Of a DNA stretch of 64,000 nt, positions 23,854-62,100 are shown piece by piece. Position 1 is the first letter of the stretch. Each line of letters begins with the position of its first letter. Position numbers and translations under genes: made by a program. The notes under the pieces are model-generated. The model was not told the DNA's origin. It saw only the letters and a list, made by a program, of their open reading frames with translations, and did not search any database. The stretch lies in assembly GCF_046119375.1 (NCBI RefSeq), contig NW_027362764.1:316324001-316388000 (forward strand), written 5' to 3'. This stretch comes from Phyllobates terribilis (taxonomy: Eukaryota).

Positions 23854-23866
23854 GGCCCGAGCAAAC

Positions 23867-25042: not shown

Positions 25043-25500
25043 CTGTCCTTGTCTCCCACGCCGTCAGGGTCGGTCTGCTTAATGGCTCTCAGGGCCTCTT
25101 GTAGGTTCAGGGCATAGTCCCTTATACTCTCGTATGCTCGCTGCTTGCACCCGTAGAATCTAAGCTTGATCTCGGCTGAGGTGCGGGTATCAAAGGTGTC
25201 CCTCAGCCGGGTTAGTATCCCTGCGACAGTCCTCCCCCCAGGTGGCCAGGACTTTACCTCCCTTCGGGCTGCCCCAGTTAATTGGGCCACCAGGATGCTC
25301 ACTTTTTGCTCTTCTGTGAGGGGGTACACCTGGAAGAGGCTATCCAGCTTTTCTCTAAAGTCATGCAGGGTATGTGACTCCCCTGAGTACTGGGGTAGCC
25401 AGGCCGCTCCCGGGATATAGGGCATGGTGAAAGGCATGACTGCAGCAGCGGTGGCGCTGGCGGGGGTTGAGGCAGTGAAGCTCTCCTCCGTATCCGACAT
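25043..25500 (-). pseudogene. gag: Element A gag, N-terminal part (PNMA-like capsid)
   Basis: ATG at 25500, MSDTEES...GVGDKD. Joins in frame with 17940-18467 when B and one TSD copy are removed. Confidence 0.9.
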
Positions 25501-25885
25501 CCTCCTCCCCCCTAGTGGACCGTGGCCTACCTTGCGATGATCCTCTTCCGTAGGCCGCGGCTCCGCAGTAGATCGTCAGGGTTGAGGACCTTCCGTCGCG
25601 CTCCTGTGACGTCGGCATCTGCTGGGCTCCTTCCAGGACCTTACGCGACGTCCGGACGTGAAGCGGGGCTTCAGTTCTCGCTCGCTTTCGGAGTCCACGC
25701 CCCTCTTCTTCCCGCGCGACGTCTTCAAGATGGCGTCCAACGGCGGGAAAACTCCAAGGAAGGCGGGAAGAAGGCTGAAAATGGCGCCGGATGGTGGGAA
25801 TCTTCACCGATGGCGGGAATCTTCACCACAGGTAAGTTTGAACAGTCTTTTTCAGGCACGCAGTACCCGGTGGTTGCGGGCACGA

Positions 25886-25904
25886 AATCCTGCCGACTAC
25901 GCCA
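25886..25904 (-). promoter_or_regulatory. Primer-binding site complementary to the tRNA-Ser(AGA-type) 3' end
   Basis: Plus strand AATCCTGCCGACTACGCCA matches the 3' end of vertebrate tRNA-Ser including CCA; it lies 5 nt from the LTR. Confidence 0.9.
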
Positions 25905-25909
25905 AAAGT

Positions 25910-26909
25910 TGACGCGCCCCTGGGCCTGTGTCGCGCTGCGTTGCGCACGCGGGAGCTTACCCGGAGCCGGATCTGTTGAGGGTTGTAGTCTCGTGGCGGT
26001 GACCCGGTCCGTGCCCAGGGAGTCAAACTGAGCGGCGATGTATCAGCGGTAGATGTTGGACGACTACGCCACCCGTTGAGTACAGCTAAGGAGCTGCTGC
26101 TGCAGGGCAGACCGCTGAGGCCGGTGGTAGGATTGTGCAGCGTGATAGTATAACCCCAACGGGAGGGGTATGGCCTCAGGGCAGCCGACGTGGATGATGG
26201 GGGTAGCAGGAACCACTCGGAGACGGTACGGTGTAGTTCAGGGTCTTTACTGATGACAAAGATAGACCCTCCCGGAGTACTGGCTAGCGATTGGGGCCTG
26301 GTCAGTCCTTGAGCAGATGGGATCTCCCCTGGCCAGGCGGAGTTGTAGGCCTCCCAAACTAACTGTACTCTTCTGGCTACCTTGCTAGAGGCGGGTATAA
26401 GTAGCCCACGTCCCTGAGTGTACCGTGTGGTGCTCACCCGTATGGCCGGTGACTCGGGGCCTTCTAGTAGCTTCCGCTCCACGACGGCGGTGCTGGTCCC
26501 ATGCGTGTGACCGTGCCTTCGGGTTTCTTGGCCAGAGGACCTGGAATCCCCTGCCTGACGGATTCTGCTGCTGGGTAGGAGTTAGTCCCCACAGCCTCGG
26601 ACTCCGGGTCCGGTAAGAAATCTTCTCAGTCAGGGCGAGCTCTGCAGCTGCCAGCCCCTGACTCCTTGTAACACTGCTCCCACAGAGCTCCTGATGTTCT
26701 GTTCCTATATTTGCTTCTTTTCTCTGTCTCTACTTCTTCTCTACTCACTAACCCTGCCTCAGCCCTAGGTTTATATAGGGGAAGTTCTTCCCCTCCCAGG
26801 ACTGGGCAGGAGGTGTGGCATGCATAGGATTCCTGACCAAGAGACCTCCCACCTGCTCTCAGACGTAATATCTCTATCACTGTGGCAACCAGACCCCTGG
26901 GGTGTCACA
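25910..26909 (-). repeat. 5' LTR of element A
   Basis: Near-identical to 12485-13485 and immediately followed on the minus strand by the PBS. Confidence 0.95.
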
Positions 26910-28427: not shown

Positions 28428-28850
28428 TGTTAGAACTCTCCTGTTAGGTTTTTTTTAGTTTGCTGGTCACATGACCATTTTTGCCTATTTAATCCGGCTC
28501 CGCCCTCCTGGTCTTGCTGGACTTCATTGTATTTACTACTCTTGAGCTAGCTTGGTGCTCTGTTGCCGTTCTCTGTTAGTTTTGCTAGGTCTTCTGACCT
28601 CTATGCTTTTTGTTGTGTGTATGTCTTTGACTGCTACTATTTCTGCTAGGAGGTGTCCAAACTTATCCCAGTCCCTAGTTCTTGTAGGGATCCCTCCCTC
28701 ACATCTATAGGTCTTCGTTCAGACTAGCCGAGGACTTTAGCGGGTCTGATCGCAGGATCAGGTTCCCCGTTACATCGTAGGGATCTAGTTTAGTTCTATT
28801 GTAGGGACAGTTCTCCTGTCTTTCCTTAGTCCCTGTAGCAGATCATAACA
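28428..28850 (+). repeat. 5' LTR of element C (423 bp)
   Basis: TGTTAG...CATAACA; about 10 differences from the 3' LTR by eye. Confidence 0.95.
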
Positions 28851-28913
28851 GTAAGTCCAGCCCTAAAAGAAAAAAAAATTTTTTTTCTAAGGAAAGACCT
28901 CCAGTTTTCCATC

Positions 28914-31900
28914 ATGGTCTCGGTTCAAGATTTGGCTCAACGCTTGCAGGGACTCTCTCTGGAGGTGGCCAAGCTCCAACAACACCTGAGTAGCTGTTCT
29001 GGAGCACATTTTGTGGAACCAAAGGTACGTCTGCCTAATTTATTTTTTGGCGAACAACAAGATTTTTTTTCTTTTAAAAATGCTTGTTTATTGTATTTTC
29101 GTTTGAGACCCGGATCCTCTGGTGATGAATCACAGCGCATAGGGTTCATAATGTCATTTTTGCGCAAAGATCCTCAGGAATGGGCCTTCTCTCTCCAACC
29201 TAGTGATCCGTGCTTTAGATCAGTGGATAGTTTTTTTTCTGCTTTGGGTTTGTTGTACGATGATCCTGATCGTGTCTCATCTGCTGAGTCTGAATTGAGA
29301 CGTTTGAGGCAGGGATCAGGTAATGTGGAAAAATATTGTTCTCACTTCCGTCGGTGGTCTGCCCAGGTGGGGTGGAACGATTCAGCTTTGAAAAGCTTGT
29401 TTCTTGCAGGGCTAGGTGAAAGGGTTAAGGATTTACTGATTGCTTATCCCACACCTGGAAACTTGCAGGAGGCAATGCAATTAGCTATACGGGTGGACAG
29501 GAGACTGCGTGCAAGGGTTAATGAGAGCAAATCCTCTGCTATGTCAGCTCCGAGTCTTGAGAGGGTCTGTGCTGACAATGGAGAGCCGATGGAGATTGGG
29601 GCGATGGCACCCCGCTCTCAGGAAAAAGATCGCAGGCTTTCTGAAGGCTTGTGCTTCTATTGCGGAAATTCTGGTCATTTTATTAAGAACTGTGTGCTTC
29701 GTTTGAAGAAAGAAAAAAAAATGGTCAGTTATGCCCGTATTGCCTGTTTAAATTCTAAGGGAGTATTCCTATCTGCCACTACTGCTGCTCAGGATGAATT
29801 AATTGAATTTCGGGTATTTGTGGATTGTGGTTCTACTCTGAATGTGATTGATGGGGGATTCTTGGAAAAACTTAGATTAGAACCTAAAACTTTGTCATCC
29901 CCTATTGCTGTGGTTTCTGTTGATGGCTCTCCCTTGAAGAGTGTTACTCATAAGGTCTGTGAATTTCCCCTCACTATTAATGGTATTCACCAAGAAAATT
30001 TGGATTTGGTGGTATTGGATAATTTGCCTTCTCCAGTAATATTTGGGTTACCCTGGTTAAAATTTCACAATCCTGTACTGGATTGGTCTACCAATGAAAT
30101 TAAGTCCTGGAGCCCTAAGTGTTATGACAAGTGTTGTAACGGACGTATTGCTGCTGTGGATAAAGGGGAATTGCCTGTACCTATTCAGGATTTTTGGAGA
30201 GTTTTTTCTGAGGAGGAGTCACATATTTTGCCTCCCCATAGAGACTATGATTGTACCATTGAATTTGTCCCTGGAGCGACTCTTCCTAAAAGTCGTTTAT
30301 TTAATCTTACTATTCCTGAGAGAAAGGCTTTGGAGGAATACATACAGACAAGCTTGGCCGCCGGTCACATTAGGCCTTCCAAGTCTCCTGTGGCTGTTGG
30401 ATTTTTTTTTGTAAAAAAAAAAGATGGCGGTTTACGTCCTTGTCTGGACTTTCATGAGATTAATAAAATTACTGTACGCAATCCTTACCCACTGCCATTG
30501 ATTCCTGATTTATTTAACCAGTTAGTGGGGGCCAAGTGGTTCTCTAAAATTGATCTCCGGGGGGCATACAATTTGTTGCGCATGAAGGAGGGTGATGAAT
30601 GGAAGACTGCTTTTAACACTCCTGTGGGTCATTTTGAGAATCTGGTTATGCCTTTTGGTCTTACCAATGCTCCAGCATTTTTTCAGAATCTTATTAATGA
30701 CATCCTTAGACCTTTAATCGGCAAAAATGTGGTTGTGTATTTGGATGACATTCTGATTTATTCGCAAGATCTGGAGTCTCATTGGCGGAACGTACGTGAG
30801 GTATTACAGTTATTAATGGACAATTCGCTTTTTGCTAAGCTGGAGAAATGTGAGTTCGCTGTACAGAGAATTAGTTTTTTGGGCTACATTATCTCCAGTG
30901 AAGGTTTTGAGATGGACCCGGTTAAAGTTCAAGCTGTGCAGGAATGGCCTAGGCCTATTGGTTTGAAATCGATACAGAGGTTTTTGGGTTTCGCCAATTA
31001 TTACAGAAAATTCATAAAAAAATTTTCTATTATTGTCAAACCGCTGACCAATCTCACCAGGAAAGGTGCTAATGCTGTTCAGTGGACTTCTGAGGCCATT
31101 GAAGCTTTTGTGTTTCTAAAGGAGAGGTTCACCTCTGCTCCCATCCTTATGCAGCCTGATGTGACTAAGCCGTTTTTGGTTGAGGTTGATGCTTCTTCGG
31201 TGGGGGTCGGTGCGGTGTTGTCTCAGGAAAACAAGGATGGAGTACATCACTGTGCCTTTTTTTAAAAAAAAATTTCTGAGACTGAACTTAATTACGATAT
31301 TGGTAATCGGGAATTGCTGGCGATTAAACTCGCATTTGAACACTGGCGTCACCTCTTGGAAGGTGCTGAATTTCCCATTCAGGTTTTCACTGATCATAAA
31401 AATCTGATCTATCTTGATGCTGCCAAGCGCTTGAATGCCCGTCAGGCTAGGTGGGCACTTTTTTTCTCGCGGTTTAATTTTTCCGTTACTTACATCCCGG
31501 GTACCAAGAATGTTAAAGCGGATGCTTTGTCTCGCAGCTTTTCTCCCATGGTCGGTGTTGAGGAGGAAGAGGAGAGCATTTTACAAGAAGGTGTTGTGAT
31601 TGCTGCTTTGGACTCCGTTTTGGAGGATGAGATTCTTAAAGCTCAGGAGAATGCCCCATCTAACACTCCCCATGGGAGGTTGTTTGCGCCTAGGACCTTT
31701 AGGAGAGATTTGTTTGTTGAGTGTCATGAGTCTCGGTTGGCAGGTCATCCAGGAATTTCTGAGACCAAGAGACTTGTGGGTCGCAGTTTTTGGTGGCCTG
31801 GATGGCAGAAGGAAGTCATTAAGTGGGTGCGCCAATGTACTGTGTGTGCTAGATCCAAGTCTTCGCATGCTCCTGCTGCGGGGTTGCTTTGCCCTCTGGA

Positions 31901-32984
31901 GGTTCCTAGTGCACCTTGGACACATCTGGCTATGAACTTTATTACTGACCTTCCCCCCTCTGAAGGTTTCACGGTCATCTGCGTGGTCGTGGACCGTTTT
32001 AGCAAGAAGTGTCACTTGGTTCCCTTCATCAAACTGCCTTGCGCTAAGACACTCGCTAAGGCCTTTGTCAAGGAAATTGTCAGACTACATGGTGTTCCTA
32101 CTGACATTGTTTCTGATAGGGGACCTCAGTTCGTGGCTTGTTTTTGGCGTGCCTTTTGTGACAGGTTGGGAGTTCATTTGTCGTTTTCATCTGGATATCA
32201 TCCTGAGTCTAATGGCCAGACAGAAAGGAAGAACCAGGATGTTGAGCAGTTCTTGCGTTGTTTTGTGGCAGACAATCAAGAGGGGTGGTCTGAGTTTCTG
32301 CCACTTGCTGAATTTGCTCTTAACAACCATACATCCTCTTCTGCTGGGTGTTCGCCTTTTTTTTGTTGTTCTGGGAGACATCCGTCTTTTGGGTCATTCT
32401 CCAAATTGGTTTCGGCTGTGCTTGAGGAGGAGAGTTTTTCCGGTGATTTGGAGAGAGTTTGGACGGATGTGCATGGTAATCTTCAGGAGGCTAACAAAAA
32501 ATCTAAGAGGTACTTTGATAGGAAACGGCAAGAGGTTTTGTTTGCTGTTGGTGACATGGTTTGGTTGTCCTCTAAGAATCTGCGATTGAGGATTCCTTCT
32601 AAAAAATTGGGTCCCAAGTTCGTAGGGCCCTTTAAGGTGCTTCAGATAGTTAACCAATCTGCTGTTAGGTTGGAGGTTCCTACGTCCTGGAAGATTAACC
32701 CGGTGTTTCATGTTTCTGTGTTGAAAAAAGCTGATGTGTCTGATGGTGACGCCTCTGCCACTGTTCCTCCGGTGGTGGAGGACGGGGAATATGAAATTTC
32801 CCGCATCCTAAATTCTAGACGGTATAGAGGGAGTTTGCAGTATCTCGTCGCTTGGAAGGGTTTTGGACCTGAGGATAACTCATGGGTGAGGGCGGATGAT
32901 GTTTCTGCTTCCAGACTTGTCAGAGCGTTTCACAGGAGGTTTCCTGGTAAGCCTGGGCCTAGGGGATCCGGAGGATCCTCTTAG
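28914..32984 (+). pseudogene. Element C single-frame Gag-Pol with one in-frame TAA (31263-31265) and a D-to-N change in the integrase
   Basis: ORFs 28914-31265 and 31314-32984 share a frame. CCHC, VDCG, YLDD, HHCC and chromodomain are present; AMNF replaces AMDF. Confidence 0.92.
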
Positions 32985-32996
32985 AAGAGGGGGTAC

Positions 32997-33419
32997 TGTT
33001 AGAACTCTCCTGTTAGTTTTTTTTTAATTTGCTGGTCACATGACCATTTTTGCCTATTTAATCCGGCTCCGCCCTCCTGTTCTTGCTGGACTTCATTGTA
33101 TTTACTACTCTTGAGCTAGCTTGGTGCTCTGTTGCCGTTCTCTGTTAGTTTTGCTAGGTCTTCTGACCTCTATGCTTTTTGTTGTGTGTATGTCTTTGAC
33201 TGCTACTATTTCTGCTAGGAGGTGTCCAAACTTCTTTCTGTCCCTAGTTCTTGTAGGGATCCCTCCCTCACATCTATAGGTCTTCATTCAGACTAGCCGA
33301 GGACTTTAGCGGGTCTGATCACAGGATCAGGTTCCCCGTTACATCGTAGGGATCTAGTTTAGTTCTATTCTAGGGACAGTTCTCCTGTCTTTCCTTAGTC
33401 CCTGTAGCAGATCATAACA
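32997..33419 (+). repeat. 3' LTR of element C
   Basis: Follows the PPT AGAAGAGGGGG-TAC. Confidence 0.95.
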
Positions 33420-40009: not shown

Positions 40010-41628
40010 TAAATTCGGTACATAAAGTACTCAGACCCCTTTAAAATTTTCACTCTTTGTTTCATTGCAGCCATTTGGTAAATTCTAAAAGTTCATTTTT
40101 TTCTCATTAAAATACACTCTGCACCCCATCTTGACAGAAAAAAATACAGAAATGTAGAAAATTTTGCAAATTTATTAAAAAATAAAAACTGAAATATCAC
40201 ATGGTCATAAGTATTCAGACCCTTTGCTCGCTTTAAGTCACATGCTGTCCATTTCCTTGTGATCCTTCTTGAGATGGTTCTTCTCCTTCATTGGAGTCCA
40301 GCAGTGTTTAATTAAACTGATAGGACTTGATTTGGAAAGGCACACACCTGTCTATATAAGACCTCACAACTCACAGTGCATGTCAGACCTAATGAGAATC
40401 ATGAGCTCCAAGGAACAGCCCAAGGAGCTCAGAGACAGAATTGTGGCAAGGCACAGATCTGGCCAAGGTTACAAAAGAATTTCTGCATTACTCAAAGATC
40501 CTAAGAGCACAGTGGCCTCTATAATCCTTAAATGGAAGAAGTTTGGGACCACCAGAAGTTTTCCTAGACCTGGCCATTCAGCTAAACTGATCAATTGTGG
40601 GAGAAGAGCCTTGGTAAGAGAGGTAAAGAAGAACCCCAAGATCACTGTGGCTGAGCTCCAGAGATGCAGTAGGGAAATAGGAGAAAGTTGCACAAAGTCA
40701 ACTGCAGCCCTCCACCAGTTGGGCCTTTATGGCAGAGTGGCTCGACGGAAGTCTCTCCTCAGTGCAAGACATATGAAAGCCTGCATAGAGTTTTCTCAAA
40801 AACACATGAAGGACTCCTAGACTATGATAAATAAGATTCTCTGGTCTGATGAGATGAAGATAGAACTTTTTGGTGATAATTCTAAGCGGTATGTGTGGAG
40901 AAAATCAGGCACTGCTCATCACCTGCCCAATACAATCCCTACAGTGAAACATGGTGGTGGCAGCATCATGCTATGGGGGTGTTTTTCAGCTGCAGGAACA
41001 GGACTACTGGTTGCAATTGAAGGAAACATGACTGCGGCCAAGTACATAAATATCCTGGATGAAAACCTCTTCCAGAGTGCTCTAGACCTCTGACTTGGCC
41101 GAAGGTTCACCTTCCCACAAGACAATGACCCTAAGCACACAGCTAAAATAACAAAGGAGTGGGTTCACAACAACTCTGACCATTCTTGAGTGACCCAGCC
41201 AGAGCCCTAACTTAAACCCAATTAAGCTCATGTGGAGAGACCTGAAAATGGATGTCCACCAACGTTCATCATCCAACCTGAAGGAACTGGAGAGGATCTG
41301 CAAGGAAGAATGGCAGAGGATCCCCAAATCCAGGTGTGAAAGACTTGTTGCATCATTCCCAATTAGACTAATAGCTGTACTAGCTCAAAAGGGTGCTTCT
41401 ACTCAATACTGAGCCAAGGGTCTGAATACTTATGACCATGTGATATTTCAGTTTTTCTTTTTTACTAAATTTGCAAAAATTTCTACATTTCTAAGTTTTT
41501 TCAGTCAAGATGGGGTGCAGAATATACTTTAATGAGAAAAAAATGAACTTTTTAGAATTTACCAAATGGCTGAAATGAAACAAATAGTGAAAAATTTAAA
41601 GGGGTCTGAATTCTTTTCGTACCCACTG
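40010..41628 (+). mobile_element. Tc1-like transposon (IR/DR type), near full length, transposase pseudogene about 40401-41412
   Basis: ~210-bp TIRs with inner repeats ggtcataagtattcagaccct; right end ACCCACTG|TA; WSDE and VKHGGG motifs; stop at 40818-40820. Confidence 0.92.
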
Positions 41629-42378
41629 TATATTACTATAAGAATTTATGTGCGTAAGTGCTACAATAGTGCTTGTATGTTTCCACCAGGAAAAAATAAA
41701 AAATTATATCTAGGGCCCTGCCACCATTTCACTGGATCATTTGGTTATAATTTTGTGGTCTTCACTTATGTTTAGATTTTTATTATAATTTGTTTGCATG
41801 AAAAAATATGGAAAAAAATGAAAAACGTATATTATTGCAAATCTGCAATCAATTAATTCAAGTATACTTTTCAACATTGAAATTGCAACGCCAAGAAGGG
41901 AAAGTTGTGGAATTATGGAAATCACAGGATTGCTAGACATCATTAGCAAATTATAGAAAAATGGATACATTTTAAAAACATCTCAATTGATTTAGTATTG
42001 AGTATGAGTATCACATGAAAATGCACATGCACTAACGTGCCTTAGCATTTTATCACTGAGGTTGTTAATTGTCTGAGAAATGATCTGTCACATTGAATGC
42101 ACTTGTGACTGCTAATCATCAAGATCCACTGCTAGAAGCTCCCTTTAGAATTGCAAATCAATGTTGTCCTCACGGTGCTCAATGGAAGACAATTCCAGAG
42201 AAGCTGAAGGCTACCATAGCATATTTAGGTCTAAGGGGTAATGTTTTTCCTTGTGGAGAGTGACATACCGGCTCTTGCCTTGGCATGCCAGAGCCGGTAT
42301 GCCACTCTCCACAAGGAGAAACGTTACCTCTTAAACCTCAGTCCAGAGCCTCTCATCTAGCCAAATCAGTTCCCATAT

Positions 42379-42422
42379 TTTGCACTGATGAGGGCCTATA
42401 GCCTGAAACACTGTGCTGCAAA
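42379..42422 (+). ncRNA. Minimal type I hammerhead ribozyme, copy 1 (U16.1 deleted)
   Basis: tttgca-CTGATGA-gggc ctata gcct-GAAA-cactgtg-c-tgcaaa. Stem I is extended by a perfect 12-bp helix, 42358-42369 with 42431-42442. Confidence 0.85.
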
Positions 42423-42712
42423 TTGAGATTCTGATTTGGCTATTATCCTAAGTCATATTGCAAAACTCGTCAAAAGATCGATTGGGACTTGTAGGATTGC
42501 TGCTTTTAGTAGGTGGTGCTATAGAGTTTAAGTCCTTTTTCTTTCTGAAGAGGCAATTTACATAGCATTAAATTTCCCAGAGGACCATTGCACGGCAAAT
42601 AAGCCTTTTAATCTTGGCATGACAGAGCAGGTATGTCACTCTCCACAAGGAGAAACATTACCCTTTAGATCTCAGTCCAGAGCCTCTCAGCTAGCCAAAT
42701 CAATTCTCATAC

Positions 42713-42757
42713 TTTAGACTGACGAGGGCCAATAGCCTGAAACACTGTGTCTGCAAA
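42713..42757 (+). ncRNA. Minimal type I hammerhead ribozyme, copy 2 (GUC site intact, stem I 5' strand mutated)
   Basis: tttaga-CTGACGA-gggc caata gcct-GAAA-cac t gtg-TC-tgcaaa; predicted cleavage after C42751. Confidence 0.85.
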
Positions 42758-42869
42758 TTGAGATTCTGAATTGGCTATTATTTTGACTTGTAGGATTGCT
42801 GCTTCTAGTAGTTGGTGCTATAGAGTTCAAGTCCTTTTTCTCTCTGAAGAGGCAATTTACATAGCTTAG

Positions 42870-43320
42870 TTAGGCACACAGGCATTGTCATTTTCCACTA
42901 GGTCTCTAGACCAATCTCTGGCTATCATTTGCATTGAAGAAAAAAGTGGGACTCATCACTGAAGAGGATAGATCTTCATTCCAGTTTCCATTTATCCATT
43001 TAAGTCGCTGATATCAATTTCTAGCTCATGTGGTTTTGCTATAAAGAGGCCTTCATGAGGGAACATCACACCGGTCTTTCTTCTGAAATATGATACCATG
43101 GCAGCATCTCTGGACTTGTCTGCTAATGTAAACTTCTAGAACATCGTTGGTCAAAAATTTTAAAGGGAGCTGCCAGCAGTGGATCTTGATGATTTGAATT
43201 CCTAAGTGCATTCATTATAACAGGCCATTTCTCAAACATCCATTAATAACCTCAAGGAGTGTTAGTGTGTGTATTTCTGAGCTCATACTCAATACTGAAT
43301 AAATCAAGATGTTTTAAAAA
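42870..43320 (-). mobile_element. Highly degraded Tc1-like fragment; inverted homologue at about 42030-42150
   Basis: FSDES-like codons on the minus strand; 43130-43270 is an inverted match to 42030-42150. Confidence 0.45.
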
Positions 43321-43689
43321 CTTTGTTTCCATTTTTTCATCATTTGGTCAGCAGTAACATGTCTATTGATCAAAAACAGATAGTAACTTTTTTGCTATGT
43401 GTTTGTTCCTTTTTTGCACTTACTCATCGCTTTAAATGTGGGAAAACGCTGCAAAACTGGTGTAAAAATGCTGAAAGAAGTGACATGCTGCACTTTTCAA
43501 AAAAGGTGCAGTTTTCCAATTCAGTCAGGAAAAAAAAACAATGTGTGTGCATGAGATTTCTGAAATCTAATGGCTTTTGCTGGTACTGTAAAAAGTAGCT
43601 TTTAATTTGCATAAAAAATGCAGCAAAAAAAAGCGCCCAAACGCAACATGTGAGCATAGCCACATAAGTTACATACTTAGCGAAAGGAC

Positions 43690-44933
43690 GTCTACCTGGA
43701 AGCAATCTAAGTGTCACCACTAGGCAATCTAGGCACCACTAATCAAACAACACCATGAAGATCAAAGTTGTAGTACAAGTCAGGGTTGGGTTATAAATAT
43801 ATATATGAATCTCTGATTATCCCCTGGAGCACCATCAAATCCATTATCATCAAATGGAAAGATCATGGTACCATAACAAACCTGCCAAGAGAGGGACGCC
43901 CACAAAAACTCTCAGCCTGGGCAAGGAGGGCATTTACTGTAGAGGCAGCACAGAGGCCAAAGGTAACCCTGAAGGAGCTGCAGAGTTGCCAAGCCAAGAC
44001 TGGAGTATCTATCCATACGACCACAATAAGCCATGCATTCCATAGAGGTGGCCTTTATGCAAGAGTGGGCAGAAAAAAGCCTTTACTTACACAAATTGTA
44101 AAGCTCATTTTGAGTTTGACAAAAGACATGTGAAAGACTCTCCAAATGAACGGAGGAAAGTGCTATGGTGAGATGAGACCAAAATTGAACTTTTTGCCCA
44201 CCAAGTTAAACACTATGTCTGGTACCAAACCAACACAGCTCATCACCCCAAGAAGACCATCCCCACAGTGAAACATGGTGGTGGCAGCATCATGCTGTGG
44301 GGATGGTTTTTTTCGGCAACAGGGACTGGGAAAATGGTCCGAATCAAGGATAACATGGTTGGTGCTAAATATAGGGATATTCTTGAGCAAAAGCGGTTTC
44401 AGTTTGTCAATGATTTGAGACTGGGAAGGAGGATCACCTTCCAACAAGACAATGACCCAAAGCATACTGCTAAAGCAACACTCAAGTGGTTTAAGGGGAA
44501 ACATGTAAATGTTTTGGAGTGGCATAGTCAAAGTCCAGACCTTAATCCAATTGAGAATCTGTGGTCAGACTTTAGGTCAGAAACCATTTATCTTTAGGGA
44601 GCTGGAGCAGTTTCACCTTGAGGAATGGGCAAAAAACCCAGTAGCAAGATGTGGAAAGCTCATGGTGACTTACAGCTGTAATTACCGCAAAATGAGGCTC
44701 TACGATGTACTGACTTTAGGCGTGTGAATAATTATGTACTCTGAAGTTTTCAGTTATTTTGGCCTATTTGTTGCTTGTTTCATAATAAAAAGAAAACCAA
44801 ATGTTCATAGTTGTAGGCATGTTCTTTACATGAACTGATGCAAACCCTCAAAAAAAACCTGTGAAATTCCATTTTGTGAGGTAGCAAAACATAAAAAATG
44901 CCATGGGAGCGTGATTACTTTTGCAAGCCACTG
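43690..44933 (+). mobile_element. Tc1-like transposon (DD34E), 5'-truncated, degraded
   Basis: VKHGGGSIMLWG and QDNDPKH...PDLNPIEN (34 spacing); right end rc CAGTGGCTTGCAAAAG followed by TA. Confidence 0.9.
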
Positions 44934-45789
44934 TAGAAATATAAACATAGGAACTGCAACACCAAAAAGAAATATATATATATATAGTCACAATCATCAA
45001 CCTTTCATAGCAAAACTTAAATTTTTCAAGAGTCAAATTTAAAATGTGCTTATATAGTACGATATAATATGACTAGTGATGGGCGAGCATTAAAATGCTC
45101 GGGTGCTCGATGCTCAGGTAGGACAAATTGGAATGCTCGGGTGCTCAACCAGAGCAACGAGCCCATTGTAAGTCTATGGGAAACTCAAGCATTTTTCAGG
45201 CGGCTCCCCCCGGCGGTCTGCAGAGGGCCTAAAAATTGGCCAAATCGATGTGAACAGTGCTCAAATGACATGGGAACAGCATGGAGAAGACCCCTGGAAG
45301 AATTTCTGACTCCCAGGTCACTGGTGTCAACAACGTTGTCAGAGGTATTAGCCACTTTTACGGACTCACAATAAAACATACAAAAATGAAACCAAAATGG
45401 ATTTTCCTAGGAAATATGTTAAGGAACATTTTTTCCAAGGCAATGACTTGAATATAAGGCAAAAAAAATATACAAAAACAAAAATGCTCCTTCACACATT
45501 GGGCCATGTTCACATGTAGCATTTTTGATCCGTTTTTGACTTTTGCATTGCTTTCAACCAAGACAAATGCATTCACCGGGAAATGTCATTTTCACATTTT
45601 ACATTCTTATTTGGCCATGTGGTGTGTGACACATCATCAGACACATCCTGTTTCATTTATGATGGAGGGACTCTTAAAGTCACAAAGACTATTTTTAAAG
45701 GGCCATCAGGCGGCCCTTACTATTCTTAAAGGGCCAGTAGTTGGCCCTCACTATTGTTAGAGAGCCATCAGCCGACTATGCTTTGCTGT

Positions 45790-48110
45790 TCCCATTATTA
45801 ACGAGTGGGTCTCTTATACTGTTTTTGCGTATGCAGTGACTGCAAGGGCTGCCATAAATTTGGAGTCACTCCAATGCCCCTTGTAAGAGACGTAGAGGAC
45901 AGAGAGCCTCCTAAAAACAATGTTCCCATTATTAGGAAATGGGTCTCCAATAGTGTTTGCCCATGCAGTGAATGCAAATGCTGCCAAAAATTTGGAGGCA
46001 CTCCAATGCACCTTGGAAGAGACACAGAGGTCGGAGAGTCTCCTAAAAACAATGTTCCCATTATTAGGACGTGGGTCTTCCATAGTGCTTGCAAATGCAG
46101 TGAATGCAAACACTGCCAAAAATTTTGAGACACTCCAATGCCCCTTGTAAGAGACATAGAGGTTGGAGCCTCATAAAAACAATGTTCCCATTATTAGGAA
46201 GTGGGTCTCCCATAGTGTTTGCCTATGCTGTGAATGGAAAAGCTGCCAAAAATTTGGAGGCACTCCAATGCCCCTTGGAAGAGACGTAGAGGTTGGAGCC
46301 TCCTAAAAACAATGTTCCCATTATTAGGAAGTGGGTCTCCCATAGTGTTTGCCTATGCAGTAAATGCAAAAGCTGCCAAAAATTTGGAGACACTCCAATG
46401 CCCCTTGGAAGAGACGTAGAGGTTGGAGCCTCCTAAAAACAATGTTCCCATTGTTAGGAAGTGGGTCTCTCATAGTGTTTGCCTATGCTGTGAATGCAAA
46501 AGCTGCCAAAAATTTGGAGGCACACCAATGCCCATTGGAAGAGACACAGAGGTCTGAGAGCCTCCTAAAAACAATGTTCCCATTATTAGAAAGTGGGTCT
46601 CCCATAGTGTTTGCCTATGCTGTGAATGCAAAAGCTGCCAAAAATTTGGAGCCACTCCAATGCCCCTTGGAAGAGACGTAGAGGTCGTAGAGCCTTCTAA
46701 AAACAATGTTCCCATTATTAGGAAGTGGGTCTCCCATAGTGTTTGCCTATGCAGTGAATGCAAAAGCTGCCAAAAATTTGGAGGCATGCCAATGCCCCTT
46801 GGAAGAGACGTAGAGGTCGGAGAGCCTCCAAAAAATAATGTTCCCATTATTAGGAAGTGAGTCTCCCATAGTGTTTGCCTATGCAGTGAAAGCAAAAGCT
46901 TCCAGAAATTTGGAGGCACTCAAATGCACCTTGGAAGAGACAGAGGTCGGAGAGCCTCCTAAAAACAATGTTCCCTTTAGGCAGTGGGTCTCCCATAGTG
47001 TTTGCGTATGAAGTGAATGTAAAAGCTGACAAAAATTTGGAGGCAATCCAATGCCCCTTGGAACATACGTAGAGGTCGGAGAGCCTCCTAAATACAATGC
47101 TCCCATTATTAAGAAGTGGCTCTCCCATAGTGTTTGCCTATGTAGTGAATGCAAAAGCTGCCCAAAATTTGGAGGCACTCCAACGCCCTTTGGAAGAGAC
47201 GTAGAGTTTGGTGTGCCTCCTAAAAACAATGTTCCCATTAGGAAGTGGGTTTCCCATAGTGTTTGCCTATGCAGTGAATGCAAAAGCTGCCAGAAATTTG
47301 GAGGCACTCCAATGCCCCTTGGAAGAGACAGAGGTCGGAGAGCCTCCTAAAAACAATGTTCCCTTTAGGCAGTGGGTCTCCCATAGTGTTTGCGTATGAA
47401 GTGAATGTAAAAGCTGACAAAAATTTGGAGGCAATCCAATGCCCCTTGGAACATACGTAGAGGTCGGAGAGCCTCCTAAATACAATGCTCCCATTATTAA
47501 GAAGTGGCTCTCCCATAGTGTTTGCCTATGTAGTGAATGCAAAAGCTGCCAAAAATTTGGAGGCACTCCAACGCCCTTTGGAAGAGACGTAGAGTTTGGT
47601 GTGCCTCCTAAAAACAATGTTCCCATTAGGAAGTGGGTTTCCCATAGTGTTTGCCTATGCAGTGAATGCAAAAGCTGCCAGAAATTTGGAGACACTCCAA
47701 TGCCCCTTGGAAGAGACACAGAGGTCGGAGAGCCTACTAAAAACAAGGTTCCCATTAGGAAGTGCATCTCCCATAGTGTTTGCCTATGCAGTGAATGCAA
47801 AAGCTGCCAAAAATTTGGAGGCACTCCAATGCCCCTTGGAAGAGACATAGAGGTCGGAGAGCCTCCTATAAACAATGTTCCTATTATTAGGAAGTGGGTC
47901 TCCCATAGTGTTTGCCTATGCAGTGAATACAAAAGCTGCCAAAAATTTGGAGGCACTCCAATGCCCCTTGAAAGAGACGTAGAGATCGGAGAGCCTCCTA
48001 AAAACAATGTTCTCATTATTAAAAAGCGGGTCTCCTATACTGTTTGCTTATGCAGTGAATGCAAAAGCATCCAAAAATTTGGAGGCACTCCAATGCCCCT
48101 TGCAAGACAT
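45790..48110. repeat. ~130-bp tandem satellite (about 18 units) inside the hAT 3' region
   Basis: aaaaacaatgttccca recurs at 130-bp spacing (46175, 46305, ...). Confidence 0.95.
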
Positions 48111-48289
48111 GTAGAGGAGGTGATATGGTGGTGAATGATATGGTGACGGAAGATGAGGAGAAGGAGGAGGACAAGAGTAAATAGACAAATTCAGAAAGCG
48201 CATACCCATTTCTTTGCTGTGAAGACAGAGGTGCATGGGAATAGAATTAGACCTCCCAAAAAAAGACACTGTTTTTGAGTTTAGGTTAC

Positions 48290-51200
48290 GCTGCTTACAA
48301 TTCAGTGGTGTTGAGAAGTCTGGCTGAATCCAGTCCTTGTTCATTTTTATAAGAGTCAGCCTGTCAGCATATTCAGATGACAGGCGGATGCGCCTATTGG
48401 TTATAATTCAACTGGCGGCGCTAAAAACCCACTCTGATAAAACGCTAGCTGCAGGGTAGGCCAGGACCTCCAAGGCGTAGAGAGCTAGTTCATTCCACGT
48501 GTCCAGTTTGGATACCCAGTAATTATAAGGCACAGAGGAATCACGGAGGACGTTGGTACGGTCAGCAAGGTACTCCCTCACCATTTTCCGAAACTTTGCA
48601 CTCCTTGTAAGAGTACCCCGCGCCTCAGGGCCTGTAAGATGGGAGGGTCCGAGAAAACTGTCCCAGAACTTTGACAGTGTTCCCCTGCCTCTGCTGGATT
48701 GGAGTTGTGTTTCTCTCACCTGAACTCCTTGGTTGTCCAAGGAACTGTGACATCTGCCGCCAGCATTTTCAGATGGGAATTTTTTAAATATTTCCGCAAC
48801 AAGGGCCTTCTGGTACTGCCCCATTTTAGTAGACCTGTCCGCTTCAGGAATAAGAGATAGAAAGTTCTCCTTGTAGTGTGGGTCTAGAAGTGTCACCAAC
48901 CAGTAATGACCGTCACCCAAAATTTGGAGAATGCGAGGATCACGGGAAAGGCAGCGTAACATAAACACATCCATGCGTGCCAGAGTGCTAACAGGCAAGA
49001 CTTCCGTGTCCTCACCAAGAAGACAACTGACCATGCTCTCCTCCTCCTTCCTGTCCATAGGCCATCCACGCTGAACAGACGGTATGACAGTTGTGCAGGT
49101 AGTACCATCTATAGTGCCTGAAACTAGCTCCTCTTCCTCCTATTTGTCATTGTCACCTAATCCACGTTTGAATGAGATGAGGCAGGGCTGTGTGTAATCT
49201 CCCTGTATGGTTCTTTGCTCCATCTCATCGTGCTCTGTCTGGAATGCATCCTCTTTGATTGTGAGCAGAGAGCGTTTCAGAAGACAGAGAAGTAGGATCT
49301 AATTATGGCGTCATCGCCGCTCACCATCTTGCTGGAGACCTCAAAGTTTTGTAGGATGATACATATGTCTGACATCCATGTCCACTCCTGAGGTTTTATG
49401 TGTGGAGTCTGAACTGAATACCGATGGCCTTATTGATGCTGGTAGTCAACAATTGCCCTCTTCTGCTCACAAATCCTTCCTGACATCTGCAATGTAGAAT
49501 TTCAATGCGTGGGGACATCACACACCAGTCGGTAAACTGGAAGCTGCAAATGCTGCTGAAACACTGCAAGGGCGACGGAAGCTGTAAGTGACTTTCTAAA
49601 ATTGGCACACAGGCGGCGTACTTTGTCAAGCAGATCCGGCAGCTCCAGGTAGGTTTTGAGAAACCGCTAAACCACGAGGTTAAGCACATGGGCCAGAGCC
49701 GTCACCAGGTTCCTGCCATTGTCACACAAAACCATGCCTGGCTGTAGGTTCAGTTGTGTCAGCCACAGATCTGTCTGCTCTTTCAGATCTGTCCACAACT
49801 CTTCAGCATTGTGTGGTTTGTCACCTAAGCATATGAGCTTCAGCACAGCCTGTTGCCACTTGGCCGAGGCAGTGCTGCAGTGCTTCCAGCTTGTGACTGA
49901 TGTGGTCATTTTGGAGATGGATGCTGAAGAGGAGGAGGAGATGCAGGTGCTGTAGAATGTGGGGGCAACCCTGATTGAACAAGAACACTCAGTACTCGGC
50001 GTCAGGAGAACATGTTCCATCCCAAAGTCCTACTGGGTCCAGGCTTCCCCTATTTTAACCCAGTGTGCCATCAGCGAGATGTACCGTCCCTGCCCACAAG
50101 CACTTGTCCACGTGTCCGTGGTAAGGTGGAGTTTCTCAGTAACTGCATTGTTAAGGGCACGGCTAATGTTGTGGGACACGTGCTCGTGAAATGTGGGGAC
50201 GGCACACCGGGAGAAATACTGGTGGCTGGGGACCGAGTGCTGAGGGACGGCCGCTGCCATCAGGTTGTGGAAAGCTTCCGTCTCCATGAGCCTAAAAGGC
50301 AACAGTTTGAGCGCAAGCATTCGCGAAATGTGTGAATTTAGTAGTGTGGTCTGTGTCGCGTCCGCTTTGCACTTGCGTTCAAAGGACAACTGAACGCTGT
50401 GCTGGGACAAGGACGAGCTTGATGATCGTGCTAGTTGAGAGTATGCAATGACAAGTGTAGGGTAGGAGGCATCTTCACGTGTGCCATGGACAGAGGATTG
50501 TCTTGCATGCGGAAGAAGCAGTGGTGCCACTCGCAGACACTGTTCTTGGATCCTGGGGTTCGGCCCATTTAGTCGGGTGCTTTGCTGCCATGTGCCTGAT
50601 CATGCTGGTGGTGGTCAGGCTGGTAGTTTTGCTACCCCTGCTGATGCTGGCCTGGCAGGTGGTGCAAGTGGCTTTTTTGGGGTTATCGGCAGAGTCTTTA
50701 AAAAACAACCAGACTCGAGAAGACCTAACAGTTGTACTGGCAACTTCCGTCGTGTTGATGTTATGGGGAACGGTTGCTCATCTTCTGTCTGCGGCCACCA
50801 CACTGCTTCTTCCTGACTGTTGTGGTGCTCTGCCTCCCTCCCCCTGTGTGATACTCTCCTCGCTCTGTGTTATGCTCCCGCCCGGACTGACTAGCGTGAG
50901 CGTGATTAGTGATCCCACTGTACCATGAACCAAGGAAAGCCTGGAGGGGCGTAACTAAGTATCAACCCGATCCGACCAAGGTCGCATGGTGGCTCAGTTG
51001 ACTTCGTGAACCAGGGAGGAACCGAGCAGATGGACCAGGTGCTACTCCAGGTCAGACCCCGGTCACAGCTGTTGACCCACACCAGGGAATGCAGGAACAG
51101 GCAGGTTAAACTGGCATATTGACTAGTGGGTACTGGCAGGCATGGCTGGTATGCAGACAGGTGGATGTTGACAGGCACGGCAGGCATGCAGACAGGTGGG

Positions 51201-55328: not shown

Positions 55329-56875
55329 CACTGTGTGCAGAATTATAAGGCAAGTTGTATTTTAGAGGATTATTTTTATTATTGATCAACAACTATGTTC
55401 TCAATCAACCCAAAAGACTCATAAATATCCAAGCTTAATATTTTTGGAAGTTTGAGTGGGCTTTTTTTAGATTTGGCTATCTTAGGAGGATATCTGTTTG
55501 TGCAGGTAACTATTACAGTGCAGAATTATTAGGCAACTTAACAAAAACCAAATAGAATCCCATCTCACTTGTTTATTTTCACCAGGTAAACCAATATCAG
55601 TGCACAAAATTTAGAAATAAACATATCTGACATGCAAAAACAAAAACAAAAAAAATTAGTGATCAATATTGCCACCTTTCTTTATGATGACACTCAACAG
55701 CCTTACATCCATAGATTCTGTCAGTTGCTCGATCTGTTTTCGATCAACATTGCATGCAGCAGCCACTACAGCCTCCCAGACACTGTTCCCAGAGGTGTAC
55801 TGTTATTCCTCCCTGTAGATCTCACATTTTATGAGGGACCACAGGTTCTCTATGGGGTTCAGATCAGGTGAACAAGAGGGCCATGTCATTATTTTTTCTT
55901 CTTTTAGACCTTTACTGGCCAGTCACACTGTGGAGTAGTTGGATGCATGTGATGGAGCATTGTCCTGCATGAAAATCATGTTTTTCTTGAACGATACCGA
56001 CTTCTTCCTGTACCACTGCTCGAAGAAGTTGTCTTCCAGAAACTGGCAGTAGGTCTGGGAGTTGAGCTTCACTCCATCCTCAACCCGAAAAGATCCCACA
56101 AGTTCATCTTTGATGATACCAGCCCAAAACAGTACCCCACCTCCTCCTTGCTGGCGTCTGAGTTGAAATGGAGCTCTCTGCCCTTTACAGATCCAGCCTC
56201 TGGCCCATCCATCTGGCCCATCAAGAGTCACTCTCATTTCATCAGTCCATAAAACCTTTGAAAAATCAGTCTTAAGATATTTCTTGTCCCATTCTTGACG
56301 TTTTATCTTATGTTTCTTGTTCAAAGGTGGTCGTTTTTCAGCCTTCCTTACCTTGGCCATGTCCCTGAGTATCGCATACCTTTTGCTTTTTGATACTCCA
56401 GTAACGTTGCAGCTCTGAAATATGGCAAAAATGGTGGCGAATGGCATCTTGGCAGCTTCACGCTTGATTTTCCTCAATGGGCAGTTACTTGGCCAACACT
56501 CTTCTTGCGACCCTGTTGGCTATTTGCCATGAAACGCTTGATTGTTCGGTGATCATGCTTCAAAAGTTTGGAAATTTCAAGACTGCTGCATCCCTCTGCA
56601 AGACATCACACAATTTTGGACTTTTTAGAGCTTGTAAAATCTCTCTTCTGACCCATTTTGCCAAAGGAAAGGAAGTTGCCTAATAATTAAGCACAGCTTA
56701 TATAGGGTTTTGATGTTATTAGTCAACACCCCTGCTCATTACAGAGATGCACATCACCAGATTTACTTAATTGGTAGTTGGCTCTCAAGCCTATGCAGCT
56801 TGGAGTAGAACCATTTGTATAAAAAGTATCAAAGTGATCAAAATACGCATTTGCCTAATAAGTCTGCATGCGGTG
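55329..56875 (-). mobile_element. Tc1-like DD37E (TRT-type) transposon, full length, degraded
   Basis: TA flanks; ~25-bp TIRs CACTGTGTGCAGAATTA...; WTDEMRVTLDGPDGW; QDNAPSH...PDLNPIE with 37 residues between D and E (one W codon is now a stop). Confidence 0.9.
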
Positions 56876-59154: not shown

Positions 59155-62100
59155 GACCCCCTCTTCTATGAGGATCCTCCAGGCCCAGGCCTATCTGGAA
59201 ACCTCCTGTGGAAAGCTTTAACAAGCCTAGAAGCAGAGACATCATCCATCCTTACCCAGGAGTTGTCTTCGGGACCGAAACCCTTCCAGTAGACAAGATA
59301 CAGTAATTTCCCTCTATGCCCTCTAGAATTCAAAATACGAGAAATTTCATATTCGCCGTCTACCACCACAGGGGGAACTGTGACAGTGGCGTCCCTATCA
59401 GAAACGTCAGCCTTTTTCAACAAGGAAACATGAAACACAGGATTAATCTTCCAGGAAATAGGGACATCCAACCTAACAGCAGACGGGTTAACAACTAAAA
59501 ATGGACCCACTTTAAATGGACCCACAAACTTAGGACCCAGTTTTTTAGAGGGAATCCTCAACCGCAGGTTCTTCGTGGACAACCAAACCATGTCACCCAC
59601 AGTAAACAAAACCTCTTTACGTTTCCTGTCAAAATACTTCTTGGACTTCTTGTTAGCCTCTTGCAGGTTACAACGTACATTAGTCCAAACTCTCTCCAAA
59701 TCACCAGAAAAATTCTCCTCCTCCGGCACCGCCGACCCCAATTTGGAGAACGAACCAAAAGACGGATGTCTCCCAGTACAACAAAAAAAAGGAGAACACC
59801 CAGCAGAGGAGGATGTATGATTGTTAAGAGCAAATTCTGCGAGAGGCAGAAACTCAGACCACTGTCCATTTGATTCAGGATGATAACCAGATGAAAATGA
59901 CAAATGGACTCCCAACCTGTCACAAAAAACACGCCAAAAGCGAGCCACAAACTGAGGTCCTCTATCAGAAACAATATCCGTGGGAACACCATGGAGCTTG
60001 ACAATGTCCTTAACAAACGCATTAGCGAGTGTCTTGGCGCAGGGCAACTTAACGAATGGAACCAAATGACACATCTTACTAAAACGGTCCACGACCACCC
60101 AGAAGACAGTAAAACCCTCAGACACCGGAAGATCAGTAATAAAATCCATAGTGAGATGCGTCCAAGGTACACTAGGAACCTCTAGAGGTCAAAGCAACCC
60201 CGAAGCAGGAGTATGTGAAGCCTTTGACCGAGCACACACAGTACACTGACGCACCCACTTGATGACTTCCTTCTGACATCCAGGCCACCAAAAACTGCGA
60301 CTGATAAGTCTCTTAGTCTCCGAAATTCCTGGATGACCTGCCAACAGAGATTCATGACACTCCACAAACAAATCTCTCCTAAAGGCACTAGGCACGAGCA
60401 ATCTCCCATGAGGACTGTTAGATGGAGCCTCATCTTGAGCATTCAGAATCCCATTCTCCAAAACGGAGTCCAAAGCCGCCACTACAACTCCTTTCTGCAA
60501 AATTCTCTCCTCCTCCTCGGAACCGACCGTAGGAGAGAAGCTGCGAGATAAAGCATCGGCTTTAACATTCTTAGTACCAGGGATATAGATAACAGAAAAA
60601 TGAAACCGAGAAAAAAAAAGTGCCCACCTAGCTTGACGGGCATTCAAGCTCTTGGCAGCATCCAGATAGATCAAATTCTTATGATCTGTGAAAGCCTGAA
60701 TAGGAAATCTAGCGCCTTCCAAAAAATTACGCCAATGTTCAAAAGGCAAGTTTAAAAGCCAGCAACTCCCGATTTCCAACATCATAATTCAGTTCGGTTT
60801 CCGAAAATTTTTTCAAAAAGAAAGCACAATGATGTACTCCACCCTTGTTCTCCTGAGACAAAACTGCTCCGGCCTCCACCGATGAAGCATCGACCTCGAC
60901 CAAAAAAGGCTTGGTTTCATCCGGCTGCATAAGGATAGGGACAGAACTGAACCTCTCTTTGAGATACTCAAACGCTTCAATGGCCTCAGTAGTCCACTGG
61001 GCCATATTAGCACCTTTCCTGGTGAGATCGGTTAGAGGTTTAACAATTACAGAAATATTCTTAATGAATTTCCTGTAATAATTGGCAAAACCCAAAAATC
61101 TCTGTATAGATTTCAAACCAATAGGCCTAGGCCATTCCTGCACAGCCTGAACCTTCACAGGGTCCATCTCAAAGCCCTCGCTGGAGACAATGTAGCCCAA
61201 AAAACTAATTTTCTGCACAGCAAACTCACATTTCTCCAGCTTAGCAAAGAGTGAACTGTCACTCAATAACTGCAAAACTTCACGTACACTCTGCCAATGG
61301 GACTCTAGATCTGGTGAATAAATCAAAATGTCATACAAATACACAACCACATTCTTACCAATCAAAGGTCTCAGGATGTCATTAAGAAGGTTCTGAAAAA
61401 ATGCAGGTGCATTGGTAAGACCGAAAGGCATCACCAGATTCTCAAAATAACCTACCGGAGTGTTAAAAGCAGTTTTCCATTCATCACCCTCCTTCACACG
61501 TAACAAATTGTATGCCCCCCAGAGATCAATCTTGGAGAACCACTTGGCTCCCACTAACTGGTTAAACAAGTCAGGAATTAACGGCAATGGGTAGGAATTG
61601 CGTACGGTAATCTTATTAATTTCACAAAAATCCAAACATAGACGTAAAACGCCGTCCTTTTTTTTAACAAAGAAGAATCCAACTGCCACAGGTGACTTAG
61701 ATGGTCTAATGTGACCAGCAGCCAAGCTAGTCAGTATGTACTCCTCCAAGGCCTTTCTTTCAGGGATAGTCAGATTAAACAAGCGACTTTTGGGAAGAGT
61801 AGCACCTGGAACAAACACAATGGCGCAATCATAGTCCCTATGAGAAGGTAAAACTTGTGACTCCTCCGATGAAAAAACCCTCCAAAAATCTTGAATAGGT
61901 ACAGGTAATTCACCTTTTTCCACAGCCGTAATGCGACCATTACAACATTTATCATAGCACTTCGGACTCCAAGACTTAATCACATTAATAGACCAGTCCA
62001 GTAAAGGATTGTGCAGTCTTAACCAAGGCAATCCTAGAACTGGAGAGGGCAAATTATTCAAAACAACCAAGTCCAAAATTTCTTGGTGATCTCCATTGAT

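What the first reader, a model, noticed from the sequence alone, without database searches (positions are those of the whole stretch)
42279..42865. Non-coding 334-bp tandem repeat with minimal type I hammerhead ribozymes (retrozyme-like)
Seen: two copies 334 nt apart, each with CUGA(U/C)GA, a 4-bp stem II, GAAA, a palindromic ACAC-U-GUGU stem III, and stem I extended by a perfect 12-bp helix (42358-42369 with 42431-42442). There is no ORF and no adjacent RT or GIY-YIG sequence. Established: minimal type I hammerheads with short palindromic stem III occur in Penelope-like terminal repeats, newt satellite 2 and metazoan non-LTR retrozymes, which yield monomeric and circular RNAs. Inference: this is a member of a self-cleaving, possibly circRNA-producing, non-autonomous retroelement family in this genome. 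Both copies have G-U at 10.1/11.1, which looks like CpG decay.
Basis: partly seen in the sequence, partly recalled or inferred. Interest (0 to 1): 0.85.

Follow-up and report, generated by a model that had tools for sequence, protein, structure and literature searches.

The report
Decayed hammerhead-ribozyme retroelement (retrozyme) dimer
This is a worn-out, two-copy insertion of a known kind of small animal jumping element whose RNA cuts itself, and it ends in a fold-back like those left by Penelope retrotransposons, the elements thought to move it.

Summary
The repeat is real (228 of 249 aligned bases identical, plus a 36-nt indel). Both copies carry a type I hammerhead core. Two corrections: the ribozyme is the canonical, extended type (6-bp helix I, 4-bp helix II, loop-contact bases), not the minimal Penelope type; and neither copy is intact. 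Copy 1 lacks U16.1, so it has no GUC site; copy 2 has two helix I mismatches. Rfam Hammerhead_1 aligns end to end to copy 2, but at 16.5 bits against a cut-off of 34. Partial tandem, inverted head and long duplication are the published Penelope insertion signature. Best reading: a fossil non-LTR retrozyme dimer (newt satellite 2 / axolotl type), probably from a frog, inserted by Penelope machinery. Retrozymes are reported from 7 of 7 amphibians sampled, so this is a new member of a known kind. Copy number, transcription and cleavage could not be tested.

The parts
42215..42229 (.). Left copy of a candidate target-site duplication (about 12-15 nt; edges blurred by microhomology at both junctions)
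   Evidence: 13 of 15 identical to 42860-42874. A match of 12 of 14 or better was reached in 20 of 3000 local and 57 of 3000 window-wide random pairs. Alignment to a sister host fragment reaches 42218, inside this copy.
42227..42275 (-). Inverted (head-to-head) copy of the first part of the unit; forms a long fold-back hairpin with copy 1
   Evidence: 44 of 49 identical to 42290-42338 and 45 of 49 to 42624-42672; blastn E 3e-14; the hairpin folds at -84.5 kcal/mol.
42276..42290 (.). Fold-back junction: 3-4 filler bases and a 10-nt palindrome (42281-42290) at the head of copy 1
   Evidence: Read from the sequence.
42279..42612 (+). Unit 1, full length (334 nt; 335 counting the base missing from the ribozyme)
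42358..42442 (+). Extended type I hammerhead, copy 1: perfect 12-bp outer helix, internal loop, perfect 6-bp helix I (42379-84/42417-22), CUGAUGA 42385-91, stem II 42392-95/42401-04; U16.1 missing, so no cleavage triplet
   Evidence: fold z = -3.7, 0 of 200 shuffles as stable; no Hammerhead_1 match at E<=10.
42613..42865 (+). Unit 2, partial: lacks 36 nt near 42782 and stops about 46 nt short of the unit end
   Evidence: The 36 nt pair with downstream bases in copy 1 (-10.2 kcal/mol) and leave no structure in copy 2, which suggests a deletion in copy 2.
42692..42777 (+). Extended type I hammerhead, copy 2: CUGACGA 42719-25, stem II 42726-29/42735-38, palindromic stem III 42742-50, GUC with predicted cut after 42751; helix I has two mismatches
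   Evidence: Rfam RF00163 aligned 1-45/45 at 42713-42757, 16.5 bits, cut-off 34, E 0.072 in a 71-nt window chosen after the fact; fold z = -2.6, 2 of 200 shuffles.
42860..42874 (.). Right copy of the candidate target-site duplication; its first 6 bases are also the unit's own 3' end (microhomology)
   Evidence: 13 of 15 to the left copy against 7 of 15 to the unit's continuation; last 9 bases 7 of 9 against 1 of 9, P about 0.003.
41947..42226 (-). Left host flank: probable C-terminal remnant of a decayed Tc1-type transposase (not part of the element)
   Evidence: Weak: tblastn E 0.17 to transposase residues 261-279, seen with 32 of 52 queries; hhalign E 0.036, probability 1.4%; 26 of 300 shuffles score as well.
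42875..43075 (-). Right host flank: probable middle (first catalytic Asp) remnant of a decayed Tc1-type transposase, same strand as the left flank (not part of the element)
   Evidence: Profile positions 119-156; 1 of 300 shuffles scores as well; no Pfam match at E<=10.

Best explanation
A fossil insertion of a non-LTR retrozyme, a non-autonomous retroelement of the satellite 2 / axolotl Rtz331 kind, in a vertebrate genome that is probably a frog's. Shown in the sequence: a 1.9-unit tandem of a ~335-nt non-coding unit with a canonical extended type I hammerhead, an inverted head copy at a palindrome, and an imperfect direct repeat at both ends. Inferred from the literature: multimeric transcripts of an intact source copy cut themselves after GUC, probably as double hammerheads paired through the palindromic stem III. 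The monomers were ligated into circles. A Penelope-like element's reverse transcriptase and endonuclease copied such a template for more than one unit into a nick in an old Tc1 transposon, starting at a 6-8 nt microhomology. The copy folded back at the head palindrome, giving the inverted arm, and repair duplicated the target. The copies have since decayed neutrally (about 4% each), so this locus probably no longer yields a monomer or circle.
For: Unit size, 42% GC, dimer and canonical type I hammerhead fit the definition (PMC7229834 Fig. 1C legend; amphibian mean 316 bp; GC). Helix I 6 bp and helix II 4 bp with no extra base after A9 match 'canonical' in PMC4209133. The loop-contact bases of the Schistosoma ribozyme (PMC2632901) are present in both copies: U first in the internal loop, UAC/UAU before helix I, C...A loop 2. 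Rfam Hammerhead_1 aligns full length. Partial tandem plus adjacent inverted copy, palindromic junction and 8-10 bp duplication are the described Penelope signature (PMC8557442; PMC3846280). Arm and copies are about equally diverged (5, 4 and 7 differences in 49 nt), as expected if made in one event. The best hit of a nearby Ty3/gypsy protein is from Xenopus tropicalis, 53% identity.
Against: No Rfam match reaches a gathering score anywhere in the window; no hammerhead family appears at E<=10 in an 801-nt search; copy 1 has no Hammerhead_1 match even in a 70-nt window. Only two copies are available, with no compensatory changes between them. No other copy lies in the 64 kb. The circular monomer is not unusually structured (z = -0.9, 41 of 200 shuffles as stable), unlike the 'highly self-paired' circles described. 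The inverted arm is only 49 nt and does not end at the same unit position as the right end, unlike typical inverted pLTRs. The flanks map to transposase residues about 119-156 and 261-279, so host sequence may be missing at or near the site, which weakens the duplication reading. No sequence comparison with satellite 2, REP4 or a pLTR could be made.
Confidence: 0.75

Rival explanations
1. A remnant of an autonomous Penelope-like element: two pseudo-LTR-derived units and an inverted head left by a truncated or internally deleted insertion, not a free-standing retrozyme family.
For: Inverted head, palindromic junction and long duplication are Penelope features. 24 of 57 Xenopus retrozyme families match known TEs, nearly all Penelope termini, so the boundary is blurred.
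Against: The units are directly adjacent with no coding remnant. The ribozyme is canonical, whereas metazoan Penelope hammerheads are described as minimal variants lacking the loop contacts.
Confidence: 0.12
2. A solo monomer inserted first; the second unit and the inverted arm arose later by DNA-level duplication (unequal crossover, repair fold-back), with no circular template.
For: The 2026 preprint proposes local tandem amplification from a single Penelope terminus. The missing host sequence suggests repair events near the site.
Against: The direct copies are no closer to each other (7 of 49 differ) than to the arm (5 and 4). One candidate duplication brackets the whole structure.
Confidence: 0.1
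3. A chance hammerhead look-alike inside an ordinary local duplication.
For: Rfam scores are below cut-off; neither copy is a complete active ribozyme; the two copies are not independent evidence.
Against: The strict descriptor is met in 2 of 200 shuffled windows. Core, three helices, loop-contact bases and a 12-bp outer helix all coincide, and the two copies' lesions are complementary.
Confidence: 0.03

Closest known systems
Metazoan non-LTR retrozymes (PMC7229834; bioRxiv 10.64898/2026.07.22.740005), especially axolotl Rtz_331/Rtz_353 and Xenopus families such as REP4
   Same: Non-coding tandem of about 335 nt, GC under 45%, canonical type I hammerhead with weak palindromic helix III in each unit, dimer arrangement, long candidate target duplication.
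   Different: Both ribozymes here are damaged. G-U closes stem II. Helix III has three pairs round a 3-nt loop, against 1-2 bp with a tetraloop in axolotl. An inverted head copy is not described in the main texts of either paper. Sequence homology to these families was not testable.
Newt satellite 2 (about 330 bp)
   Same: Unit length, extended hammerhead with internally looped helix I, likely dimeric cleavage (PMC6155905 passages).
   Different: Reported from salamanders; this host looks like a frog. Its snRNA-type promoter (cited in PMC2220036) could not be confirmed here. No sequence comparison was possible.
Penelope-like elements (pseudo-LTRs with hammerheads)
   Same: Partial tandem, inverted 5' copy with a palindrome at a head-to-head junction, duplication of about 8-10 bp or more.
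   Different: No RT/GIY-YIG ORF; canonical rather than minimal ribozyme; inverted arm only 49 nt; no 30-40 bp tail could be defined from one locus.
Schistosoma mansoni SMalpha hammerhead (Rfam RF00163)
   Same: 6-bp helix I, 4-bp helix II, C...A loop 2 with AAUA, UAC-type bulge, end-to-end model alignment.
   Different: 16.5 bits against a cut-off of 34; different stem sequences; 5-nt loop 2; G-U at 10.1/11.1.

Membership tests
Non-LTR retrozyme | Short tandem repeat, about 150-450 bp unit, dimer or more | tested here: met
   334/335-nt unit, 1.9 copies
Non-LTR retrozyme | GC below 45-50%, no protein coding | tested here: met
   42% GC; longest stop-free frame 61 codons; frames overlapping the element have no credible Pfam match
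Non-LTR retrozyme | Canonical type I hammerhead architecture in the units | tested here: met
   Helix sizes, core and loop-contact bases; full-length but sub-threshold RF00163 alignment
Non-LTR retrozyme, 'active' in the preprint's sense | Complete hammerhead in two consecutive units | tested here: not met
   Copy 1 lacks U16.1; copy 2 has two helix I mismatches. This lowers 'active', not family type.
Non-LTR retrozyme | Target-site duplication longer than 4 bp, when present | tested here: inconclusive
   13 of 15 repeat, chance 0.7-2%; continuity of the empty site not shown
Non-LTR retrozyme | Multi-copy family in the genome | not testable with these tools
   No eukaryotic genome collection is on hand; no further copy in the window
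Non-LTR retrozyme | Self-cleavage and linear/circular monomer RNA | not testable with these tools
   Needs assays or RNA-seq
Non-LTR retrozyme | Highly self-paired circular monomer | tested here: inconclusive
   z = -0.9 for the decayed monomer; a family consensus is needed
Rfam Hammerhead_1 (RF00163) | Score at or above 34 bits | tested here: not met
   16.5 bits for copy 2, no match for copy 1; no positive control from an amphibian retrozyme was available
Penelope minimal hammerhead | Extra base between positions 9 and 10.1, usually longer helix II, short helix I, no loop contacts | tested here: not met
   No extra base, helix II 4 bp, helix I 6 bp, contact bases present
Autonomous Penelope-like element | RT plus GIY-YIG ORF between the repeats | tested here: not met
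   0 of 69 frames in 36-45.7 kb; fragments under 50 aa were not scanned
Penelope-type insertion signature | Partial tandem with adjacent inverted 5' copy and palindromic junction | tested here: met
   compared; the arm is shorter than typical
Newt satellite 2 | Sequence homology and snRNA-type promoter | tested here: inconclusive
   One-mismatch octamer at 42556 and 42855, but such sites occur at 3.1 per kb locally; source paper not held; homology not testable

The most novel reading that the evidence does not exclude
The junctions are a direct footprint of Penelope enzymes acting on a canonical-hammerhead retrozyme. If head-to-head fold-backs, long target duplications and 3' microhomology recur across this family's loci, they would identify the mobilising partner, and favour copying from a more-than-unit (circular) template over local amplification. 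That partner has so far been argued from co-occurrence and phylogeny. A bolder corollary: the two damaged ribozymes complement each other. Copy 1's core with copy 2's GUC strand gives a perfect 6-bp helix I and 7 of 9 helix III pairs, so the 'dead' dimer might still cut once at 42751. That fold lies 10.4 kcal/mol above the minimum, so I put the corollary alone near 0.1.
Probability: 0.4. Interest if true: 0.55.

Novelty: new member of a known kind. Interest (0 to 1): 0.3.

Why it matters
As a single locus it is an ordinary, decayed member of a class already catalogued in amphibians. Its value is as a lead. How animal retrozymes are inserted is open: the 2026 preprint says it has only limited evidence on the life cycle. 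The ends of this insertion look like a Penelope product, and a genome-wide junction survey, which is cheap, would test that.

Tried and rejected
Rfam at gathering level on the whole window: 0 matches. The miRNA-family matches at 42228-42337 (35-51 bits against cut-offs of 80-140) only reflect the fold-back hairpin and were rejected. Tandem Repeats Finder does not report this array. The 71% inverted repeat around the element (41947-42218 with 43089-43346) first looked like a pair of transposon TIRs; I now read it as two related transposase C-terminal remnants (55% identical in translation), which rests on weak scores and partly on my recollection of Tc1 sequences. Three attempts to fetch close relatives of the host Tc1, to test the empty site, failed: 5 of 5 hits were unrelated repetitive proteins; 0 of 73 candidates scored; no related copy lies elsewhere in the window. 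The 120 Tc1 proteins fetched are of a distant family; I used 52 of them (length 325-350) and 26. A snRNA-type promoter like that of satellite 2: a stretch near 42637-42650 resembles the frog proximal element from my memory only; searches found no text to check it against, so it stays a lead. Bacterial, phage and plasmid collections were not searched, as the locus is vertebrate.

Full report
Setting. The window is a transposon-dense stretch of a vertebrate genome. It holds several Ty3/gypsy retrotransposons, Tc1 transposons and a hAT remnant. The best named hit of one gypsy protein is from Xenopus tropicalis at 53%, ahead of fish at 43-49%. A frog host is therefore an inference, not a result.

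The repeat. Local alignment gives two direct copies starting at 42279 and 42613. Outside a 1-nt gap and a 36-nt indel, 228 of 249 bases are identical. The second copy ends at 42865, about 46 nt short of a full unit. The 36 extra bases of copy 1 pair with sequence that both copies keep, so copy 2 probably lost them. The offset is 334 before the ribozyme's 1-nt gap and 335 after it, so the source unit was probably 335 nt. GC is 42%. No frame longer than 61 codons is open. No other copy lies in the window.

The ribozyme. Both copies have CUGA(U/C)GA, a 4-bp stem II closed by G-U, a 5-nt C...A loop and GAAA. Copy 1 has a perfect 6-bp helix I and a perfect 12-bp outer helix, but lacks U16.1, so it has no stem III and no cleavage triplet. 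Copy 2 has the full palindromic stem III and GUC (cut predicted after 42751), but two helix I mismatches and 10 of 12 outer pairs. A strict descriptor finds only copy 2 in the window and is met in 2 of 200 shuffles. Rfam gives nothing at gathering level and no hammerhead in an 801-nt search. In a 71-nt window chosen after the fact, Hammerhead_1 aligns end to end with copy 2 at 16.5 bits, cut-off 34; copy 1 gets only a weak type III match. I had no known amphibian ribozyme as a positive control for these models.

Canonical, not minimal. PMC4209133 defines canonical metazoan hammerheads by a 6-bp helix I, a 4-bp helix II, loop contacts and a short palindromic helix III; minimal Penelope ones have an extra base before 10.1 and usually a longer helix II. 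This motif has the canonical sizes and no extra base. It also carries the contact bases described for the Schistosoma ribozyme in PMC2632901: a U opening the internal loop, UAC (copy 2) or UAU (copy 1) before helix I, and a 3' A in loop 2. That places it with retrozymes and satellite 2.

Decay. Of 21 substitutions, 8 fall in the 85-nt extended ribozyme, out of 249 aligned bases, so there is no sign of protection. None is compensatory. The G-U at 10.1/11.1 sits in a TpG context and CpG is scarce, but both copies share it, so it was probably in the template. The circular monomer is no more stable than shuffles. The lesions are complementary: copy 1's core with copy 2's substrate strand restores helix I. 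That fold costs 10.4 kcal/mol over the minimum, similar to copy 2's own active fold at 11.3, so activity is unlikely but testable. In the Xenopus preprint only 1 of 9 predicted dimers cleaved.

Directly left of copy 1, 42227-42275 is an inverted copy of the unit's head: 44 and 45 of 49 bases match the two copies. It folds back across a 10-nt palindrome at 42281-42290. The arm and the copies differ by 5, 4 and 7 of 49, consistent with one event, though the numbers are small. A 15-nt imperfect repeat brackets the whole structure (42215-42229 and 42860-42874; 13 of 15). A match of 12 of 14 arose in 20 of 3000 local random pairs. The right junction resembles the left flank (13 of 15) more than the unit's own continuation (7 of 15). 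The unit's 3' end shares 6-8 bases with the target. Partial tandems with an adjacent inverted copy are described as typical of Penelope-like elements (PMC8557442), with junction palindromes read as self-priming and 8-10 bp duplications (PMC3846280).

The host. Both flanks translate weakly, on the minus strand and in the right order, like pieces of a Tc1 transposase: positions about 119-156 on the right (1 of 300 shuffles as good) and 261-286 on the left (26 of 300). Tens of codons between them seem absent. I could not tell whether that loss sits at the insertion or a short way off, because no close relative could be fetched. The target duplication is thus likely but unproven. No Penelope coding sequence was found in 69 of 69 frames within about 6 kb left and 3 kb right.

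Mechanism and comparison. The best reading is a fossil non-LTR retrozyme dimer inserted by Penelope enzymes (0.75). Structure and ends are shown. Transcription, dimeric cleavage, circularisation and the partner enzyme are inferred from PMC7229834 and the preprint. One caution: in vitro, an Anolis Penelope protein starts reverse transcription at RNA sites not homologous to the target and does not need ribozyme cleavage (PMC11167929), so the microhomology and circle steps are not required by known biochemistry.

Novelty. Retrozymes were found in 20 of 31 vertebrates and 7 of 7 amphibians, mean amphibian unit 316 bp. This is a new member of a known kind. An inverted head on a retrozyme is not described in the main texts of the two retrozyme papers, and two searches showed no paper on it in their listings (12 listed, 20 of 39 listed). 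PMC4209133 does note pairs of minimal hammerheads on opposite strands. The preprint's supplements were closed and that of PMC7229834 was unreadable; either may hold such cases or the matching family sequence.

What I saw of each paper. Preprint 10.64898/2026.07.22.740005: parts 1-3 of 5 and passages. PMC7229834: parts 2-4 of 6 and passages. PMC4209133: parts 1-2 of 4 and supplement parts 1-2 of 3. PMC11167929: parts 1-2 of 4. Passages only: PMC8557442, PMC3846280, PMC2632901, PMC6155905, PMC7761336, PMC2220036, PMC2837043, PMC5054213, PMC3544641, PMC6765202. Coats 1994 and Lunse 2017: titles in reference lists only.

Noticed in passing
window 45787-48117 and 3604-4495: A 132-bp array (17.8 copies, 388-bp higher-order period) has relatives of 133 bp and 52 bp near 3.6-4.5 kb; the flanks of the two sites match in inverted orientation and one carries a weak hAT domain (48411-49139). 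It looks like one DNA-transposon family seeding satellites.
   Followed up: no
window 12485-26581: Ty3/gypsy element with 99% identical terminal repeats 13.4 kb apart, holding a nested element with 99% identical repeats 5.4 kb apart; both look young.
   Followed up: no
window 28428-33296 and 59172-63161: Two chromodomain Ty3/gypsy copies about 85% alike in opposite orientation.
   Followed up: partly
window 40263-41632, 43774-44724, 55600-56700: Three further decayed Tc1/Sleeping Beauty-type transposase genes, two of them flanking the locus.
   Followed up: partly
window 41947-42218 and 43089-43346: 71% inverted repeat around the element, apparently two related transposase C-terminal remnants whose similarity ends almost at the insertion point; that coincidence is unexplained.
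   Followed up: partly
window 42556, 42855 and 42637-42650: One-mismatch octamer in each unit and a stretch recalling a frog snRNA proximal element about 110 nt upstream of the cut site; a possible satellite 2-type promoter, unverified and near background.
   Followed up: partly
window 42281-42305: The unit's head folds into a 9-bp hairpin at the point where the inversion begins.
   Followed up: no
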